In this document: positions 1-5,784 of the stretch, piece by piece
Layout: every line of letters starts with the position of its first letter
Position numbering within the stretch: the stretch's first letter is position 1
Source: a virus
Strand: one strand, 5' to 3'
DNA: 64,000 nucleotides
Virus record (IMG/VR): IMGVR_UViG_3300031519_004559
The notes under the pieces: model-generated
Told to the model about the DNA's origin: nothing
Seen by the model: the letters and a program-made list of their open reading frames with translations, nothing else
Databases searched by the model: none
Made by a program: the position numbers and the translations under genes

Positions 1-339
1 TATTTCTAGTCCCATCTAATCTTAAAGTGCGCTTCATGTGAGTCTGCCACAGCCAAGACATTGGAAAGAGGTAATTTTTTATACACAAGTTCAATGGGCT
101 CTGACCTTTCCCATCCTCCGTCGACATCGCTTTTTACAGCTATCCCCCGCTTCGTTCCTAGTGCTAAAGGGTTTTTATGAACTATGTTGTGTTTTTCGAC
201 TGCCAACAAAACAATCTATATCAACCAGTGAGCCCAATTTGTTTGGTGGCTTCCTACCTCTGGGTAGTCGATCAATATGTACGTGTGCTTCTATACGAGA
301 GCTTTTTCCACAGCGGTAATTTAAACTGGCCCGCTAACC
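1..339 (-). ncRNA. Candidate structured non-coding RNA (truncated at window edge)
   Basis: No credible ORF. About 43% GC over 1-300 by hand count, in an AT-rich window. Nested complementary segments 312-316/331-335, 196-200/267-271, 202-214/239-250 (imperfect), 255-258/263-266, 95-101/230-236, 63-68/106-111. Strand inferred only from the upstream GIY-YIG gene. Confidence 0.5.
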
Positions 340-789
340 TTATGTGTTGGAATGTTTTGCCTGTATGTGATGTTCTAGCAATGCCTGTTTGAGCTTGTCT
401 GATCCGCCGACTCTAACATTAATGATTCCGTTGTAGTAATCATCTGTTTCAAGTACTCGCCTATCAAACTGTTCTCTTGCCTCTATGTAGGACATTTCGC
501 CCCTACCTTTACATAGATATAGAATTACTCGTGTAAACTTATCTGAGCCTAGTTTAGCAACATCTGCATTTAATCTGTCTGAACTACCATAATATGTCTT
601 CCAGTCTGATTCTTTAGTGCCGCGTCTTTTATTTTTTTTGCCTTTAAGTGGTGGCTTAGTAGTTTTAAATTTTGCTAGTTTTTTGCCTACGTATTTTTGG
701 CCTGTAGTGGTGTTGGTAATGAGGTAAACAAAGCCTTCATACTCGTCTGGTATTGTGTCTATTGTCTTCCCTTCGTAAGTCCACTGCAT
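340..789 (-). CDS. GIY-YIG family endonuclease (catalytic domain only)
   Basis: GFVYLITN...KYVGKK motif, YYGSS, conserved Glu (YIEAREQ) and YYN. Confidence 0.85.
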   Translation of the reverse strand: MQWTYEGKTIDTIPDEYEGFVYLITNTTTGQKYVGKKLAKFKTTKPPLKGKKNKRRGTKESDWKTYYGSSDRLNADVAKLGSDKFTRVILYLCKGRGEMSYIEAREQFDRRVLETDDYYNGIINVRVGGSDKLKQALLEHHIQAKHSNT

Positions 790-794
790 GAGTA

Positions 795-800
795 TACTTA
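795..800 (-). promoter_or_regulatory. Putative late promoter TAAGTA upstream of GIY-YIG gene
   Basis: GGTAAGTA 5 nt before the ATG at 789; same motif as upstream of structural genes. Confidence 0.45.
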
Positions 801-806
801 CCGTGC

Positions 807-1022
807 CTATTCAGTTTTATTGCCTTTTATGGTTTTTTTAGTTGTTACATGTTTTTCGTGTATTTCTTCCATGCGTAATTTTGCTAATCTTCGTATTTCA
901 CGTAACCATCTTCTTACAGAAGCGTGTGTACGCACAGAATTACGAGCTTCAAATTTGTCATTTTCTTTAAAATACTCCATATACGCTTTGGTTAATTGGT
1001 CGTGTATATCATCATTAATCAT
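807..1022 (-). CDS. Small basic helical protein, histone H1-like (Hc1-like) candidate
   Basis: 71 aa from MINDD (ATG overlapping hemC stop, ATGATTAA); K/R-rich helical pattern ...ENDKFE...VRRWLREIRRLAKLRMEEI. Confidence 0.5.
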   Translation of the reverse strand: MINDDIHDQLTKAYMEYFKENDKFEARNSVRTHASVRRWLREIRRLAKLRMEEIHEKHVTTKKTIKGNKTE

Positions 1023-1752
1023 AATACACTGCCCGTAGCGTAATAGGGTCACTTCCTGTTGCATGTGCTGCTAGTGCCGTATGACAATCGCCTCCCATGC
1101 CCTTTAAAAATGCACGTTCAACTTGCGCCTGAGCAAATGTTTTTGCATGATTAATTTTTTTAACAATGTTAATAACTTCAATATCGTCTTTTCTAGTTTG
1201 CAACGCAATTACTCCTTGCCCAACGGCAGGAATAGTAGGAATTCTCATCCATGTACGTCTAATATCTAACGCTTTTAATCCTGCTTCAGCTAGTATTATA
1301 GCATCATATTCCGCATTGTCAAGTTTTTTTAATCTAGTATCAATATTACCACGAATGGGTTTTATTTTAATATCTAAATTTTTATATAATTCTGTTAGCT
1401 GTGCAATTCTTCTTGGACTGCTAGTTCCTATGGTACACCCAAAACTAATTTTTCCTAAAAGTACATCATGTGGACTATTACGTTTAAGCATTGCAGCAAT
1501 AATTAAGTCAGGATGTTCTTCACCGGGCATGTCTTTTAAACTGTGTACTGCAACGTCAATTTCTTTATTATGTAGCGCAACTTCAATCGCGCTACAGAAC
1601 ACTCCCTTACCGCCTATTTCGTGAATAGGCACATCTGGATTTAAGTCACCAGCAGTTTTAATAACAACAATTTCAGTATCGCACGGAAGTTCATTGCACA
1701 CACGATTTGCGTATGCAAGTGCTAAATTACTTCCTCTAACACCAATTTTCAT
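1015..1752 (-). CDS. hemC: Porphobilinogen deaminase (hydroxymethylbilane synthase), C-terminally shortened
   Basis: IGVRGSNLAL, GGKGVF, DVAVHSLKDMP, GTSSPRR, IRGNIDTRL, YDAIILAEAGL, PAVGQG, ERAFL...GGDC (cofactor Cys). Confidence 0.95.
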   Translation of the reverse strand: MKIGVRGSNLALAYANRVCNELPCDTEIVVIKTAGDLNPDVPIHEIGGKGVFCSAIEVALHNKEIDVAVHSLKDMPGEEHPDLIIAAMLKRNSPHDVLLGKISFGCTIGTSSPRRIAQLTELYKNLDIKIKPIRGNIDTRLKKLDNAEYDAIILAEAGLKALDIRRTWMRIPTIPAVGQGVIALQTRKDDIEVINIVKKINHAKTFAQAQVERAFLKGMGGDCHTALAAHATGSDPITLRAVYYD

Positions 1753-2030
1753 TATTTTCTCTCAATATACATGTCTTGGATTTTTTTGAATAGTGGAATA
1801 AAAACAAGACCTATAATACAACCAAATGCTGTACCAAATGCTAATTCCCAACTTGCTGTAGTTGCACCACCCATAAAATCACTCACAGCATTGCCGATAC
1901 CTGCACCAATTACTGTTCCAATTCCCTTTTGAAATGCCTTAGGCAAATACTTTTCAATAGATAACCCTGTCATGGCTCCTAAGATCATTATTGCATTGTC
2001 GACTATTCCAAATATTATAAAATCAATCAT
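1752..2030 (-). CDS. Small multi-pass membrane protein, TMEM65-like
   Basis: Three hydrophobic segments; FGIVDNAIMI, GAGIGNAVSD and GCIIG.....P match remembered TMEM65 family motifs (FGFLDNAIMI, AALGNLVSD, GCLLG..P). Confidence 0.65.
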   Translation of the reverse strand: MIDFIIFGIVDNAIMILGAMTGLSIEKYLPKAFQKGIGTVIGAGIGNAVSDFMGGATTASWELAFGTAFGCIIGLVFIPLFKKIQDMYIERK

Positions 2031-2037
2031 AAAATTC

Positions 2038-3810
2038 CTATTCTATTATTTCAATATCGTTTGCGTAGCTTGTGAACCCATTTTCCTTTACTACTCGCAT
2101 CACATGATTAACTCGTCCGATAAGTTCATCTTTATGTGATATAAGATATACATTTTTTTCTCGTTCTCTGCCCATCTTCTTAAGAACACTTAGAGAACTT
2201 TCAACTCCGGCAGTATCCATGCCACTGTCAATTAACTCGTCGATAAACAATAAGTTAATGTTCTGATACAAACTTTCCCAAACATCACGGAATGCAAAGC
2301 TCATACCAAGTATAAGTCTATTGCGTTCACCACGTGATAAGTTGTCAAAGTCTAAGTCTTGACCCAATTGAGTAATTTCAACATTTAAGTCGTTTTGAAA
2401 TACTACTTGATGTGGCAAACCTAGTTTTACAATATAGTATGTAAGACGATTATTTAAGTACGCCAAGTTTTGTTCAATAATTTTTTTACGTATAAAGCTA
2501 TCTTTATTAGTTAATAGTTTATGTAAGAATTCTTGATGCTCTTTATAATCTGTAATTTCATTAACTGTAGACCAGTTAATGTCTTGCATAGCTGAGTTGT
2601 TAAGTTCGTTGATCTGTGTTTCGTACGGATCATTTTCAGTTTCTTTTGTACTTAGAGCTTGTTTTAAACTGTCAACATTTTGCCGATGATCAAATGCTTC
2701 TTTAGCAGTTTCATAGAACGTAGTAGGCTTGCCGTTAATGTCGCCTATGTCTTTAAGGCCCTTTACAACGTCAGTTACCTTAGTAGTAATCTCAGACTGG
2801 TATGCAATAGCATCAGCAAGTTCTTTAGTTTTACGATCTGCTATTTCTGCTTTTTTGTCTGCATGTAGTTCTTGACCACAAGTATAACAAGTAGCATCAT
2901 CTAAATCTGCGATATCTTTTTGTGCCTTTTCAACAGACCTGTCTGCACGTTGTAGTGCTGGTTCTAATGTGCTTAATTCTTTTTTAAGAGCCAAAATAGC
3001 ATTATTATGCGCTGTCCAGTTCTGCAATCTTTCATGAGAATTTAGTTCAACATCAATGTCTAAGTGTTCTAACTCGTCGATTGCTTTAGATAGCTTTGTA
3101 ACGTCTTGTTGTTTTTTTGATATCCAGGCTCGTTGTGTTTTTCTTAAACTCTCAATTGTACTTTCAATTTTACCATTGGCACTTTGTATTGCTTCGATTT
3201 TAAGTGTTTCTTGAGTAATTGCGTCCTTGCTCAATTTCATCTGTTCTTTTAAGCCTTCGGCTTTTTCAGACAATATTGTAATACCTAACAACTGTTCAAT
3301 AATAGCTCGTTGATCATTAGTGCGCATACTTAAAAACGGTTCTGTGTATGTATTCAGCGCAACAATATGTTTAAACATATCGTGTGACATGCCTAACAAT
3401 GTATTAATTTCTTCTTGTGTTTTGCGACTGTCACCTTGCGACTCGTCGGTCATTTGTTGCTCTTGATTATTAACAAAGAATTTAAGCACATTAGGCGAAC
3501 GTCCTCGTTCAATCCTATAATCCTGTCCGTCTTTTTCAAAGTGTAGCGTAACTAGCATACCTTTTGAATTAGTTTTGTTAATTAAGTTGTTTCTTTTAAT
3601 GTTTGTAAGAGCAACACCGTACAATGCATAGCTTAGTGCATTAATGATAGTAGTTTTACCTGTACCATTTCGGCTTCCACTATCGTCACCGCCTTGGTCT
3701 AAGTTTTCACCTAGCACAAGGGTCAGTTGTTCTTTATTAAAATCAACTGCTTGAGTCTGATTACCAACACTCATGAAGTTCTTTACGGTTAAATCTTTAA
3801 TACGTATCAT
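2038..3810 (-). CDS. gp46: gp46-like recombination endonuclease subunit (SbcC/Rad50 ATPase)
   Basis: VKNFMS, Walker A NGTGKTT, coiled coils, CYTC zinc hook, LSRGE signature, LFIDE Walker B, ISH. Confidence 0.95.
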   Translation of the reverse strand: MIRIKDLTVKNFMSVGNQTQAVDFNKEQLTLVLGENLDQGGDDSGSRNGTGKTTIINALSYALYGVALTNIKRNNLINKTNSKGMLVTLHFEKDGQDYRIERGRSPNVLKFFVNNQEQQMTDESQGDSRKTQEEINTLLGMSHDMFKHIVALNTYTEPFLSMRTNDQRAIIEQLLGITILSEKAEGLKEQMKLSKDAITQETLKIEAIQSANGKIESTIESLRKTQRAWISKKQQDVTKLSKAIDELEHLDIDVELNSHERLQNWTAHNNAILALKKELSTLEPALQRADRSVEKAQKDIADLDDATCYTCGQELHADKKAEIADRKTKELADAIAYQSEITTKVTDVVKGLKDIGDINGKPTTFYETAKEAFDHRQNVDSLKQALSTKETENDPYETQINELNNSAMQDINWSTVNEITDYKEHQEFLHKLLTNKDSFIRKKIIEQNLAYLNNRLTYYIVKLGLPHQVVFQNDLNVEITQLGQDLDFDNLSRGERNRLILGMSFAFRDVWESLYQNINLLFIDELIDSGMDTAGVESSLSVLKKMGREREKNVYLISHKDELIGRVNHVMRVVKENGFTSYANDIEIIE

Positions 3811-4817
3811 AGTTCGTTATAAATGTCCAATAGCATCTTTTTGTTAAAGTTTTCAGATTCAATAGCAGATATTTCACCACTTACAATCTGGTCTACACTT
3901 TCAAAATGTTGTATGTCGATATCTGTTGATATTTCTTCCATTTGTTTTTGAGGAATAAGTGCTATCTCTCTACACTTATATTGTGTAACGAATGTTTCTT
4001 TAATAAACGTTGCTTCTTCAAAAGAAATTGGAACATCTATAGTAACACGCAAATACATATTGGGTTTAATAATGTTATCAGTATCTTCTAATAACTTCTT
4101 CAGCCCAACAGTTCTATACTTAGGGCAGTCTGTCCAGTTAAGATACACAGGTTCTTTATCATTTTCTCTATCAAGTATCATCATGCCACGGTCGTCATCC
4201 CATGCATCAGCATAATTGTGCGGAAATGCATTACCTAAGTAATGTACTACACCTTGTTGCTGACGTTTGTGGAAGTGTCCACTAAACACATATGATTGAT
4301 TACTAAAGTCTTCTGCACGTAACTCGCCGTGATCGGGCATTTGTACCATAGCATTCATATAGAAGCTAGGTAACTCAAAATGCCCAAAAACATATTTGCT
4401 TTTTAACTTTCTAAGTTTCTTCCATTCGTCGCCTACTAACCAAGGAACAATAGTAACGTCCTCAATTGTAGTAATTTCGTCGATAAATGTAATACCCGGA
4501 ATATGTTTAGCAAATGCTGTACTGTTAACGTCACGTTTGTCTTTGTAATACAAATCGTGATTACCATCAAAGAAGAAGAACTGCTCAAAGGCGGCTCCTA
4601 GCTTTTCCATACTACGAATAGTAGCATCCATAGTAGTTAAGTTTAAACTATTTCTATTATGATGCCAGTCTCCGCAGAAGATGCCAGTCTCGCAACCGGC
4701 AGCTTGTGCTTCTTTGATATACCAGTCAATAAAGTCTTCACAGTCCTGATTGTGAACTTTGCTATTACCTTTTAATCCTAAGTGGATATCGGTAAAAACT
4801 GCCGCTTTTTTAAACAA
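3807..4817 (-). CDS. gp47: gp47-like recombination endonuclease subunit (SbcD/Mre11)
   Basis: TDIHLG, GDWHH, GNHD, GHFE, SGHFH metallophosphoesterase motifs; adjacent to gp46; TTG start. Confidence 0.95.
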   Translation of the reverse strand: MFKKAAVFTDIHLGLKGNSKVHNQDCEDFIDWYIKEAQAAGCETGIFCGDWHHNRNSLNLTTMDATIRSMEKLGAAFEQFFFFDGNHDLYYKDKRDVNSTAFAKHIPGITFIDEITTIEDVTIVPWLVGDEWKKLRKLKSKYVFGHFELPSFYMNAMVQMPDHGELRAEDFSNQSYVFSGHFHKRQQQGVVHYLGNAFPHNYADAWDDDRGMMILDRENDKEPVYLNWTDCPKYRTVGLKKLLEDTDNIIKPNMYLRVTIDVPISFEEATFIKETFVTQYKCREIALIPQKQMEEISTDIDIQHFESVDQIVSGEISAIESENFNKKMLLDIYNEL

Positions 4818-5704: not shown

Positions 5705-5726
5705 TTTTTCTCCAGTTGTTATGTAT

Positions 5727-5755
5727 ATTATAAACTACTACGTTAATAAAGTCAA
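5727..5755 (-). promoter_or_regulatory. sigma70-type promoter for gp55
   Basis: TTGACT (5755-5750) - 17 bp - TATAAT (5732-5727); GGAG SD at 5713-5710. Confidence 0.8.
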
Positions 5756-5756
5756 C

Positions 5757-5762
5757 TAAATA
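5757..5762 (+). promoter_or_regulatory. Putative late promoter TAAATA for the baseplate operon
   Basis: ACTAAATA upstream of AGAGG SD and ATG 5785; resembles T4 late TATAAATA. Confidence 0.65.
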
Positions 5763-5784
5763 CTTTATATAAAAGAGGTTAATT

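What the first reader, a model, noticed from the sequence alone, without database searches (positions are those of the whole stretch)
1..789. Stand-alone GIY-YIG nuclease followed directly by a large structured non-coding element
Seen: downstream of the nuclease stop lie at least 339 nt without a credible ORF, unusual in this dense genome. The region is about 43% GC and has nested stems: 196-200/267-271 closes a junction holding 202-214/239-250 and 255-258/263-266. The loop segment GAGCCCA (230-236) is complementary to TGGGCTC (95-101), a possible pseudoknot or kissing pair. Further pairs are 312-316/331-335 and 63-68/106-111. The 149-aa nuclease has a very basic insertion (KFKTTKPPLKGKKNKRRGTK). 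Known: homing GIY-YIG enzymes such as I-TevI use a separate C-terminal DNA-binding domain, which is absent here. Inference: nuclease and RNA may be co-transcribed from the TAAGTA site at 800-795 and form a ribonucleoprotein, or the element may be a ribozyme or replication origin.
Basis: partly seen in the sequence, partly recalled or inferred. Interest (0 to 1): 0.8.

Follow-up and report, generated by a model that had tools for sequence, protein, structure and literature searches.

The report
Twin-box phage RNA behind a small nuclease
The gene-free stretch after a small DNA-cutting-enzyme gene of this uncultured giant marine T4-like phage is the first two-thirds of a real, knotted, roughly 500-base non-coding RNA that is in no RNA catalogue; it can exist without the enzyme, and its job is still unknown.

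Summary
Window 340-789 (-) encodes a 149-aa SegE-type GIY-YIG nuclease. Downstream lies conserved, ORF-free sequence of 43% GC. It is the 5' two-thirds of a ~490-nt structured RNA that the window edge cuts off.

On 83 relatives, my consensus of 86 pairs is 95% paired, against 33-39% when partners are slid. 49 pairs change on both sides, and one pseudoknot covaries.

The RNA unit starts about 23 nt inside the nuclease ORF. The same leader precedes the RNA where there is no nuclease.

A 7-nt word (ACATGAA) occurs twice, 51-72 nt apart. It changes identically in both copies in at least 9 variants. No complementary partner was found nearby.

139 of 143 RNA copies follow the nuclease. The RNA is also kept in small phages without it, and the nuclease family sits in 784 cultured phage records without the RNA. 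A dedicated nuclease-RNA particle is therefore unlikely.

Rfam gives no match (group I, GOLLD, ROOL, HEARO, RF01718). The GC-skew minimum lies 4-6 kb from the RNA.

This scan has already found the same family in other genomes. Verdict: a real, uncatalogued RNA family of unknown function, next to an ordinary nuclease.

The parts
340..789 (-). Short SegE-type GIY-YIG nuclease gene (149 aa)
   Evidence: Pfam PF19835 E 6e-36 and PHROG 447 E 7.5e-40 over nearly the whole 148-position profile. 171 of 181 complete copies pass the intactness test, and the 113 distinct intact copies are 140-152 aa long. Median pairwise dN/dS is 0.12.
340..362 (-). Conserved A/C-rich leader of the RNA unit (AGGCAAAACAnnCnAACACATAA), which overlaps the last 7 codons and the stop codon of the nuclease
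   Evidence: The same leader precedes the RNA in every context examined. These are insertion variants (L029, L062, L080), lineages where the nuclease stops earlier (L276), and nuclease-free small phages (L106, L114, L248, L250). Third-codon-position entropy falls from 0.86 to 0.50 in the last 10 codons.
1..339 (-). First 339 nt of the ~490-nt structured RNA body, cut off by the window edge
   Evidence: nhmmer profile positions 1-351 match window 339..5 at E 2.8e-94. It is the only copy in 64 kb. Conservation continues to about nt 489 in relatives and then stops abruptly.
283..335 (-). 5' helices a (335-331/316-312), c (311-309/285-283) and hairpin b (302-297/291-287)
   Evidence: Helices a, c and the two outer pairs of b are 98-99% paired; the inner pairs of b are 76% paired. 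Every stretch has compensatory changes, e.g. GC 66 / CG 12 / UA 3 and CG 65 / UA 18 in hairpin b.
198..278 (-). Helix e (278-270/226-218) enclosing variable hairpin d (267-263/258-254) with an optional extension, then hairpin f (216-212/202-198) with the conserved loop TGTTGGC
   Evidence: Helix e is 98.5% paired and 5 of its 8 pairs change on both sides (UA 56 / CG 27; AU 51 / GC 30). Helix f is 97% paired and all 5 of its pairs change on both sides.
83..192 (-). Long-range pseudoknot helix g (192-178 with 93-83), which spans helix h (171-163/150-144) and a short variable hairpin
   Evidence: The inner 5 pairs of g are 100% paired in 83 sequences, and 4 of them change on both sides (GC 63 / AU 19; UA 64 / CG 18; AU 53 / UA 27). 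Helix h is 99% paired with UA 42 / CG 36 and CG 58 / GC 22.
67..127 (-). Near-invariant core (ATGTCGAC 127-120; GGGAAAGGTCAGAGCCCATTG 112-92) and helix j (119-114/72-67), which crosses helix g
   Evidence: Helix j is 98.6% paired with UA 73 / GC 7 / CG 2. This window itself carries a compensated variant. The 21-mer is unique in the window, with 0 expected by chance.
32..43 (-). Twin box 1 (ACTCACATGAAG; 7-nt core ACATGAA at 39-33). Box 2 lies beyond the window edge.
   Evidence: In 81 of 84 relatives the 7-nt core is identical in both boxes. At least 9 different variants change identically in both copies. No complementary partner was found in the RNA or in the held flanks.
8..16 (-). 5' strand of the conserved 9-12-bp hairpin k that sits between the boxes; its 3' strand is outside the window
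   Evidence: 98.9% paired in relatives, with CG 74 / UA 9 at the closing pair.
807..1064 (-). Small 85-aa ORF that precedes the nuclease (17-nt gap) in the same operon as gp46/gp47
   Evidence: Homologous 65-67-aa ORFs sit between gp46 and the nuclease in relatives. No Pfam or PHROG match.
1295..1322 (-). Perfect sigma-70-type promoter consensus, the best candidate to drive small ORF, nuclease and RNA
   Evidence: TTGACA-16-TATAAT, 12 of 12 with TG extension. This is a consensus match only, not evidence of function.

Best explanation
Window 362..1 (minus strand) is the 5' part of an autonomous gene for a large, pseudoknotted non-coding RNA. Earlier notes of this scan call the family the 'twin-box RNA'. 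It is not an accessory of the nuclease.

In this lineage of giant T4-like marine phages the RNA gene sits at the end of the short gp47-gp46 operon. A short Seg-type GIY-YIG nuclease gene has become fixed directly in front of it. The nuclease's last 7 codons and its stop codon are written in the RNA's conserved leader, so the two are most likely transcribed together.

Shown: the RNA folds and is selected as RNA. It is single-copy, and it persists without the nuclease in other phages.

Inferred:
- The RNA works as a rigid scaffold that displays two identical, unpaired 7-nt words. Both words must match one trans-acting nucleic-acid partner, which is why they change in step.
- The nuclease is a selected neighbour of homing-endonuclease type. 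Its cuts in co-infecting genomes would carry the adjacent RNA gene along by gene conversion. It is not a protein that needs the RNA to act.
For: RNA-level selection:
- 86 pairs are 95.1% paired, against 33-39% for slid partners. 49 pairs change on both sides, and 0 of 500 shuffles reach the observed values.
- A covarying pseudoknot (helix g crossing helix j) is present.
- The terminal hairpin carries a GNNA/GNRA-type loop (GUUA, GAUA, GUAA, GCAA, GCUA) on a pair that switches C-G to U-A.
- No frame is open in 28 relatives.

Autonomy:
- The same leader plus RNA occurs without any nuclease in small phages (L106, L114, L248-L250). The two divergent versions there each keep helix compensation and their own matched box pair.
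- Insertions of 22-965 nt separate gene and RNA in 38 of 139 copies. One insertion brings a TTGACA-N17-TATACT promoter.
- Nuclease homologues of 75% identity or less (8 loci, including cultured phage Melnitz) lack the RNA. So did the cultured-phage collection, which holds the nuclease family in 784 records: a distant-mode blastn with window 1-1100 matched only four Melnitz records, and those only within the nuclease gene.

Twin boxes:
- The cores are identical in 81 of 84 sequences, with at least 9 variant pairs.
- No cis complement exists in the RNA or in flanks of up to several kb.

Nuclease under selection: dN/dS is 0.12 and 171 of 181 copies are intact.

Single copy per record, up to 236 kb.
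Against: - The linkage is very tight in this lineage: 139 of 143 RNA copies have the nuclease, and all 118 nuclease loci above about 75% identity have the RNA. No 'empty' allele was seen. That is not what a purely selfish homing gene predicts, and it leaves room for a functional tie.
- The ORF overlaps the RNA leader, as ORF and guide RNA do in TnpB systems.
- The trans partner of the boxes is hypothetical. Nothing complementary was found.
- No transcript data were available, so co-transcription, RNA ends and processing are all inferred.
- Single-sequence folding energy is barely better than shuffles (z -1.69).
Confidence: 0.5

Rival explanations
1. Nuclease and RNA form one functional module. 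The RNA binds the short GIY-YIG enzyme, which lacks its own DNA-binding domain, and supplies target recognition or a scaffold, for example through the two 7-nt boxes.
For: Co-occurrence is near-strict in this lineage (139 of 143). The ORF end overlaps the RNA leader. The nuclease is only 137-152 aa, with no C-terminal DNA-binding domain, yet it is under purifying selection (dN/dS 0.12). It carries an invariant, very basic loop.
Against: The RNA is kept, with matched boxes, in small phages without the nuclease. The same nuclease family is common in cultured cyanophages, coliphages and others, while a distant-mode blastn of that collection with window 1-1100 found the RNA nowhere. The sequence just 3' of the conserved RNA falls into a few recurrent types, so it is not guide-like. 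No GIY-YIG enzyme is known to be RNA-guided (my own knowledge).
Confidence: 0.12
2. The element is an RNA-primed replication origin. The folded transcript stays hybridised to its template, as at ColE1 or at T4 oriF/oriG, and primes DNA synthesis. The twin boxes would allow pairing in two registers.
For: Earlier notes of this scan proposed this reading for the same family. An A/T-rich variable spacer follows the folded core, about 83% A+T by my own count of L010 positions 427-468 as printed. The element is single-copy. It lies next to the recombination genes gp46/gp47.
Against: The cumulative GC-skew minimum and the strand switch lie 4-6 kb from the RNA in three genomes: window about 5.7 kb against RNA at 0.3 kb; G003 44 kb against 49.9 kb; G002 92 kb against 95.6 kb. 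Long invariant single-stranded blocks and a pseudoknot are not needed for a primer. Skew in phages mostly follows transcription, so this test is weak in both directions.
Confidence: 0.1
3. The RNA is a self-processing or protein-processed RNA. It is cut at both boxes and releases the ~60-nt hairpin between them, or it acts as a ribozyme of a new class.
For: The two identical words flank a strongly conserved hairpin at a fairly constant distance of 51-72 nt. Many invariant unpaired nucleotides and a pseudoknotted core resemble ribozyme architecture.
Against: No known ribozyme or intron model matches. No internal guide sequence complementary to the boxes exists. Cleavage-site words would be expected to stay constant between relatives rather than vary.
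Confidence: 0.1
4. The element is a cis-acting 3' untranslated region of the gp47-gp46-nuclease operon. It would act as a stabiliser, terminator or insulator at the border of a hypervariable genome island, with no function in trans.
For: It lies at the 3' end of a short operon. Homology between genomes stops abruptly right after it. Many metagenome contigs break inside it.
Against: About 490 nt with a pseudoknot and twin boxes is far more than a terminator needs. No intrinsic terminator was found on its strand. It is carried into an unrelated gene context in small phages, preceded there by promoter-like hexamers that I read by eye.
Confidence: 0.08

Closest known systems
Free-standing Seg-type GIY-YIG homing endonuclease genes of T4-like phages (SegA-G; Pfam PF19835), e.g. 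SegB, which by my recollection sits among the T4 tRNA genes
   Same: It has the same catalytic domain family. It is free-standing between genes of a T4-like phage and lies next to a conserved structured-RNA gene. The family is patchy across phages.
   Different: It is only about 149 aa, with no C-terminal DNA-binding domain. It is fixed in this lineage rather than polymorphic. Its ORF ends inside the neighbouring RNA unit. No cleavage or homing has been shown.
GOLLD, ROOL, OLE and HEARO: large ornate bacterial or phage-borne non-coding RNAs (Rfam; cryo-EM in PMC12286853)
   Same: It is several hundred nucleotides long, has many helices with pseudoknots and long invariant junctions, is carried by phages, and has no known function.
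   Different: There is no sequence or structure match to any Rfam model. Two identical words that change in step are not, to my knowledge, described for those RNAs. I did not search the literature for this point.
TnpB/IscB OMEGA systems (a nuclease gene with an adjacent or overlapping guide RNA)
   Same: A nuclease ORF whose 3' end overlaps the start of a long structured RNA, followed by an abrupt loss of homology.
   Different: The nuclease is GIY-YIG, not RuvC/HNH. No transposon ends were noticed in reading the loci, but none were searched for. RNA and nuclease each occur without the other. The 3' flank is not guide-like.
ColE1 RNA II and T4 oriF/oriG R-loop origins
   Same: A folded transcript followed by an A/T-rich stretch, single-copy, in a phage that relies on recombination and replication genes located next door.
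   Different: The skew minimum and strand switch are 4-6 kb away. The RNA is far more constrained in unpaired positions than a primer needs to be. No hybrid has been shown.
Polynucleobacter-1 RNA motif (Rfam RF01718), named as closest by earlier notes of this scan
   Same: Both are uncharacterised RNA motifs known mainly from aquatic metagenome sequences (PMC2864571).
   Different: cmscan with permissive thresholds lists no RF01718 match in any of the ten sources searched: the window and nine loci, which cover the myophage type, the small-phage type and divergent types. I could not reproduce the link.

Membership tests
Seg-type free-standing GIY-YIG homing endonuclease | GIY-YIG catalytic domain of the SegE type | tested here: met
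   PF19835 E 6e-36 over residues 3-123. The candidate GIY (VY at 21-22) and YIG (KY at 32-33, G at 35) motif positions never vary among the 64 distinct 149-aa copies.
Seg-type free-standing GIY-YIG homing endonuclease | Separate C-terminal DNA-binding domain (proteins of about 200-220 aa) | tested here: not met
   149 aa here and 137-152 aa in relatives. Only a 26-aa tail follows the catalytic domain.
Seg-type free-standing GIY-YIG homing endonuclease | Presence/absence polymorphism between close relatives (a sign of mobility) | tested here: not met
   No nuclease-free allele among 139 myophage-type RNA loci. The family is patchy only at long range.
Seg-type free-standing GIY-YIG homing endonuclease | Site-specific DNA cleavage and homing | not testable with these tools
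   Needs biochemistry or phage crosses.
RNA-guided nuclease module (OMEGA-like) | Obligate co-occurrence of nuclease and RNA | tested here: not met
   4 RNA copies have no nuclease. 8 nuclease loci have no RNA, and no RNA match was found among cultured phages, of which 784 records carry the nuclease family.
RNA-guided nuclease module (OMEGA-like) | RNA overlaps or abuts the nuclease ORF | tested here: met
   The leader overlaps the last 23 nt of the ORF.
RNA-guided nuclease module (OMEGA-like) | Variable guide segment next to a constant scaffold | tested here: inconclusive
   Homology ends sharply at about nt 489, but the next bases fall into a few recurrent types. The twin boxes vary but have no identified target.
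Group I intron | Interrupts a gene, with conserved exons on both sides | tested here: not met
   The upstream ORF ends with its own stop codon. Downstream sequence is not homologous between relatives.
Group I intron | Match to the Rfam covariance model or core | tested here: not met
   No group I hit at E up to 10 on the full-length element. I did not run a positive control on a T4 intron.
GOLLD / ROOL / OLE / HEARO / raiA and other catalogued large RNAs | Match to the family covariance model | tested here: not met
   No match at E up to 1-10 in the window or in nine related loci.
Polynucleobacter-1 motif (RF01718) | Match to the family covariance model | tested here: not met
   Not listed in any permissive cmscan.
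RNA-primed replication origin (ColE1 / T4 oriF type) | Coincides with the replication start (skew minimum or strand switch) | tested here: inconclusive
   The minimum lies 4-6 kb from the RNA in three genomes. Skew follows gene strand, so the test is weak.
RNA-primed replication origin (ColE1 / T4 oriF type) | Persistent RNA-DNA hybrid processed into a primer | not testable with these tools
   Needs experiments.

The most novel reading that the evidence does not exclude
The short GIY-YIG enzyme and the twin-box RNA act together as an RNA-dependent DNA-targeting or homing module. The RNA's two identical, fast-changing 7-nt words would specify what is cut or copied. This would be the first RNA-programmed GIY-YIG system. 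The nuclease-free copies in small phages would then use a nuclease supplied in trans by co-infecting giant phages.
Probability: 0.07. Interest if true: 0.95.

Novelty: new member of a known kind. Interest (0 to 1): 0.68.

Why it matters
Large structured RNAs with unknown jobs are rare, and each one found so far (GOLLD, ROOL, OLE, HEARO) has led to new biology. This one is abundant. It sits in giant T4-like phages of the ocean and also in unrelated small phages.

It has an unusual, easily testable signature: two copies of a 7-nt word that must stay identical while the word itself drifts. That pattern points to recognition by base pairing with something not yet found. It gives an experimenter a precise handle: change one box, both boxes, or the partner.

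The work also corrects a tempting over-reading, that any nuclease followed by a folded RNA is an RNA-guided system. It further shows that a nuclease family widely labelled 'NAD synthetase' in phage records is a GIY-YIG nuclease.

Tried and rejected
- Protein-coding readings. No frame is open in 28 relatives, and lengths are not multiples of three. The ORF that starts at the invariant ATGTCGAC in this window is closed by TAG in most relatives.
- Decayed C-terminal domain of the nuclease. The short length is conserved family-wide.
- tRNA or tmRNA. ARAGORN finds none in the window.
- Any Rfam family. Four permissive scans found nothing.
- A repeat inside the window. The element is single-copy.
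- Presence in bacterial or archaeal genomes. All 52 exact 17-mer hits in 185,579 species genomes fail the profile. By my own estimate, more hits than that are expected by chance alone.
- A cis partner for the twin boxes. No reverse complement lies within +/-1200 nt or anywhere in the held loci. No column block in the RNA stays complementary to the boxes, and there is no third copy.
- A template for rolling-circle copying into a repeat protein, as in DRT2. The inter-box unit is 51-72 nt, shows no mod-3 preference, and only 32 of 84 units have any stop-free circular frame.
- Translational bypass of the T4 gene 60 type. No conserved ORF enters box 1.
- A nuclease remnant upstream of the RNA in small phages. 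BLASTP gives E = 12. Only the ~23-nt leader is shared.
The sigma-70 consensus scan does not list it.
- The nearest held virus record (G001). It does not cover this region.
Full report
**What is in the window.**
The window comes from an uncultured T4-like marine myophage with 35% GC. On the minus strand a short operon runs from a strand switch at about 5.7 kb down to position 1. In order it holds:
- a 275-aa ORF;
- gp47 (3807-4817) and gp46 (2038-3810);
- a TMEM65-like membrane protein and a HemC-like protein;
- an 85-aa ORF (807-1064);
- a 149-aa ORF (340-789).

After that, 339 nt have no credible ORF. The 149-aa protein matches Pfam PF19835 (SegE_GIY-YIG) over residues 3-123 at E 6e-36. It also matches PHROG 447 over nearly the whole 148-position profile. 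The window's own assembly is not held. Related contigs of 167-236 kb are rated 46-66% complete by CheckV, so these are phages of roughly 360 kb.

**The downstream stretch is conserved and non-coding.**
In the 80 best loci the DNA after the stop codon aligns at about 70-90% identity for about 490 nt. Homology then stops abruptly. The window therefore holds only the first 339 nt; about 150 nt lie beyond position 1. In 28 full-length copies every reading frame on both strands carries 2-21 stops, and lengths range from 439 to 514 nt.

**It is selected as a folded RNA.**
Alignments show length-variable hairpins with compensated stems between blocks that never change. I derived a consensus from RNAalifold and from my own all-against-all covariation scan. 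I then counted it on 83 non-redundant sequences that include the window:
- 86 pairs are 95.1% paired, against 33-39% when every 3' partner is slid by 1-3 columns.
- 49 pairs change on both sides, against 23-26 for slid partners.
- The covariation score is 0.25, against about 0.04-0.06 for slid partners.
- 0 of 500 shuffles reach the observed values.

In window coordinates (RNA on the minus strand) the helices are:
- a: 335-331/316-312
- c: 311-309/285-283
- b: 302-297/291-287
- e: 278-270/226-218
- d: 267-263/258-254
- f: 216-212/202-198
- h: 171-163/150-144
- j: 119-114/72-67
- g: 192-178/93-83, a long-range helix that crosses j, so the core is a pseudoknot.

The inner five pairs of g are paired in all 83 sequences, and four of them switch on both sides. 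Beyond the window lie hairpin k, hairpin l and a terminal hairpin m. The loop of m is GNNA/GNRA-type, and its closing pair switches C-G to U-A. Two further long-range pairings (GGUCA/UGACU and AGCC/GGCU) are possible, but they hardly vary and are therefore untested. A single sequence folds only slightly better than shuffles (z -1.69). The case rests on comparison.

- 312-316/331-335 (helix a) and 255-258/263-266 (inside hairpin d) are confirmed.
- 196-200/267-271 is not. It is 69-82% paired with no supporting compensatory pattern, and it competes with the covarying helices e and f.
- 202-214/239-250 and the 'kissing' pair 95-101/230-236 involve an optional extension of hairpin d that about half the family lacks. 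Where the extension is present they show at most isolated double changes, so they remain possible lineage-specific contacts only.
- 63-68/106-111 keeps four invariant pairs and loses the other two in most sequences. It cannot coexist with the covarying helix j.

**The RNA unit starts inside the nuclease gene.**
I aligned the 130 nt upstream of the RNA in every context. A leader of the form AGGCAAAACAnnCnAACACATAA, followed directly by GG(T/C)T, is present in all of the following:
- loci where it encodes the last 7 codons and the stop codon of the nuclease;
- loci where 96-965 nt have been inserted between gene and RNA;
- loci where the nuclease stops earlier;
- loci with no nuclease at all.

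Third-codon-position entropy drops from 0.86 (codons 1-120) to 0.50 in the last ten codons, as expected for a second constraint. In the window the leader is 362-340.

**Twin boxes.**
The word ACATGAA occurs twice in the RNA, 51-72 nt apart, on either side of hairpin k. Box 1 is at window 39-33. Box 2 lies beyond the window edge. In 81 of 84 sequences the two 7-mers are identical. The word itself differs between lineages: ACATAAT, ACATGAT, ACGTGAA, ACAGGAA, ACAGAAA, GTATGAA, ACATGAG and ACATAAA. One small phage appears to carry a TCATCAA-like pair, which I read from the alignment.

I found no complementary partner. None lies within +/-1200 nt, and none in any held flank. No column block of the RNA is complementary, and there is no third copy. 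The unit between the boxes shows no reading-frame constraint. I noticed the repeat before reading the scan's earlier notes. Those notes describe the same in-step change on other genomes, and I confirmed it here.

**Are nuclease and RNA partners?**
For a link:
- 139 of 143 distinct RNA copies with enough upstream sequence have the nuclease upstream on the same strand. In 101 of them the RNA starts directly at the stop codon.
- All 118 nuclease loci above about 75% identity have the RNA.
- The nuclease is under purifying selection. Median dN/dS is 0.12, and 171 of 181 complete copies are intact.

Against a link:
- The RNA occurs in small phages with no nuclease (L106, L114, L248-L250). It lies there between unrelated genes and is preceded by promoter-like hexamers that I read by eye. 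The two divergent versions each keep compensated helices and their own matched boxes.
- Eight nuclease loci of 75% identity or less, including cultured Methylophilales phage Melnitz, have no RNA.
- The nuclease family is present in 784 cultured phage records, among them 339 Synechococcus phages, Escherichia phages and Salmonella phages, and is often mislabelled 'NAD synthetase'. A distant-mode blastn of that collection with window 1-1100 found no RNA match, only the Melnitz nuclease gene.

Each component can therefore live without the other. I read the nuclease as a selected neighbour of homing-endonuclease type, not as a protein that needs the RNA. The absence of any empty allele in this lineage keeps a functional tie alive at about one chance in eight.

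**What the RNA is not.**
- ARAGORN finds no tRNA or tmRNA in the window.
- Four permissive Rfam scans, covering the window and nine related loci, list no match on the RNA element. That covers group I/II introns, RNase P, GOLLD, ROOL, HEARO and the Polynucleobacter-1 motif that earlier notes named as closest. The listed matches either fall outside the element or are far-sub-threshold snoRNA and sRNA hits, at most 18 bits against gathering scores of 36-100.
- It interrupts no gene.
- It is single-copy in the window and in records of up to 236 kb.
- The 52 exact hits of its most conserved 17-mer in 185,579 prokaryote genomes all fail the profile. By my own estimate, more hits than that are expected by chance.
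- A literature search found no description of it.

**The origin idea.**
Earlier notes favour an RNA-primed replication origin. I assembled two related contigs of 167 and 169 kb and compared them with the window.

| Genome | Cumulative GC-skew minimum and switch of gene strand | RNA position |
|---|---|---|
| G003 | about 44 kb | 49.9 kb |
| G002 | about 92 kb | 95.6 kb |
| Window | about 5.7 kb | 0.3 kb |

In each genome the minimum is at the divergent promoter region of the gp47 operon, 4-6 kb from the RNA. Because skew tracks gene strand, this neither proves nor excludes an origin at the RNA. It gives the idea no support.

**Best reading.**
This is an autonomous, horizontally shared gene for a large pseudoknotted RNA, co-transcribed here behind a fixed short Seg-type nuclease gene that ends inside the RNA's leader. 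How the RNA works is inferred. The two unpaired, always-identical 7-nt words are most simply explained if both must pair with the same trans-acting nucleic acid. The large invariant core would be the scaffold, or active part, that presents them. Confidence is about 0.5 for the architecture and the independence of the two components. Confidence in the mode of action is much lower.

**Status.**
The same RNA family has already been reported several times by this scan on other genomes. This window adds five things:
- the leader/ORF overlap;
- the negative RF01718 test;
- the skew-offset measurement;
- selection statistics for the nuclease.

Noticed in passing
window 1015-2030 (-): A HemC-like porphobilinogen deaminase (245 aa, PF01379 E 7e-62) and a TMEM65-like 92-aa membrane protein lie between gp46 and the small ORF. 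Relatives L009 and L023 go from gp46 straight to the small ORF, so this looks like a lineage-specific metabolic-gene insertion.
   Followed up: partly
window 1295-1322 (-): A perfect sigma-70 consensus promoter (TTGACA, 16 nt, TATAAT, with TG extension) lies inside the HemC-like ORF. It points towards the small ORF, the nuclease and the RNA.
   Followed up: no
window 5705-5784: An 81-nt divergent intergenic region where gene strand switches. The cumulative GC skew of the window has its minimum there. The same arrangement occurs in G002 and G003.
   Followed up: partly
window 1; loci L008, L012, L019, L039, L083, L099 and others: Many metagenome contigs end or begin inside the RNA: 18 of 80 end within 330 nt of the nuclease stop, and about 15 of 115 begin inside the element. 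This window does so too. The likely cause is assembly breaks where an invariant core meets strain-variable hairpins and a hypervariable island. A physical genome end was not excluded.
   Followed up: partly
L029:4451-4546: A 96-nt insertion between the nuclease and the RNA leader carries a near-perfect TTGACA-N17-TATACT promoter. This lineage seems to have given the RNA its own promoter.
   Followed up: no
L080 (= L272) 945-2789: The intact nuclease gene is followed by about 760 nt of inserted DNA. Then comes a second copy of nuclease residues 109-140, directly upstream of the RNA. The junction has been rearranged with duplication of the gene's 3' end.
   Followed up: no
GenBank phage records (e.g. 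NC_026923.1, KJ019100.1); PHROG 447: Homologues of this GIY-YIG nuclease are annotated 'NAD synthetase' in many cyanophage and enterobacterial phage records. The Pfam match says they are SegE-type GIY-YIG nucleases.
   Followed up: no
L069:4436-4787 and L270: In some lineages only the 3' two-thirds of the RNA (profile positions about 155-475) is present behind the nuclease. The 5' domain (helices a-f) therefore seems dispensable or replaceable.
   Followed up: no
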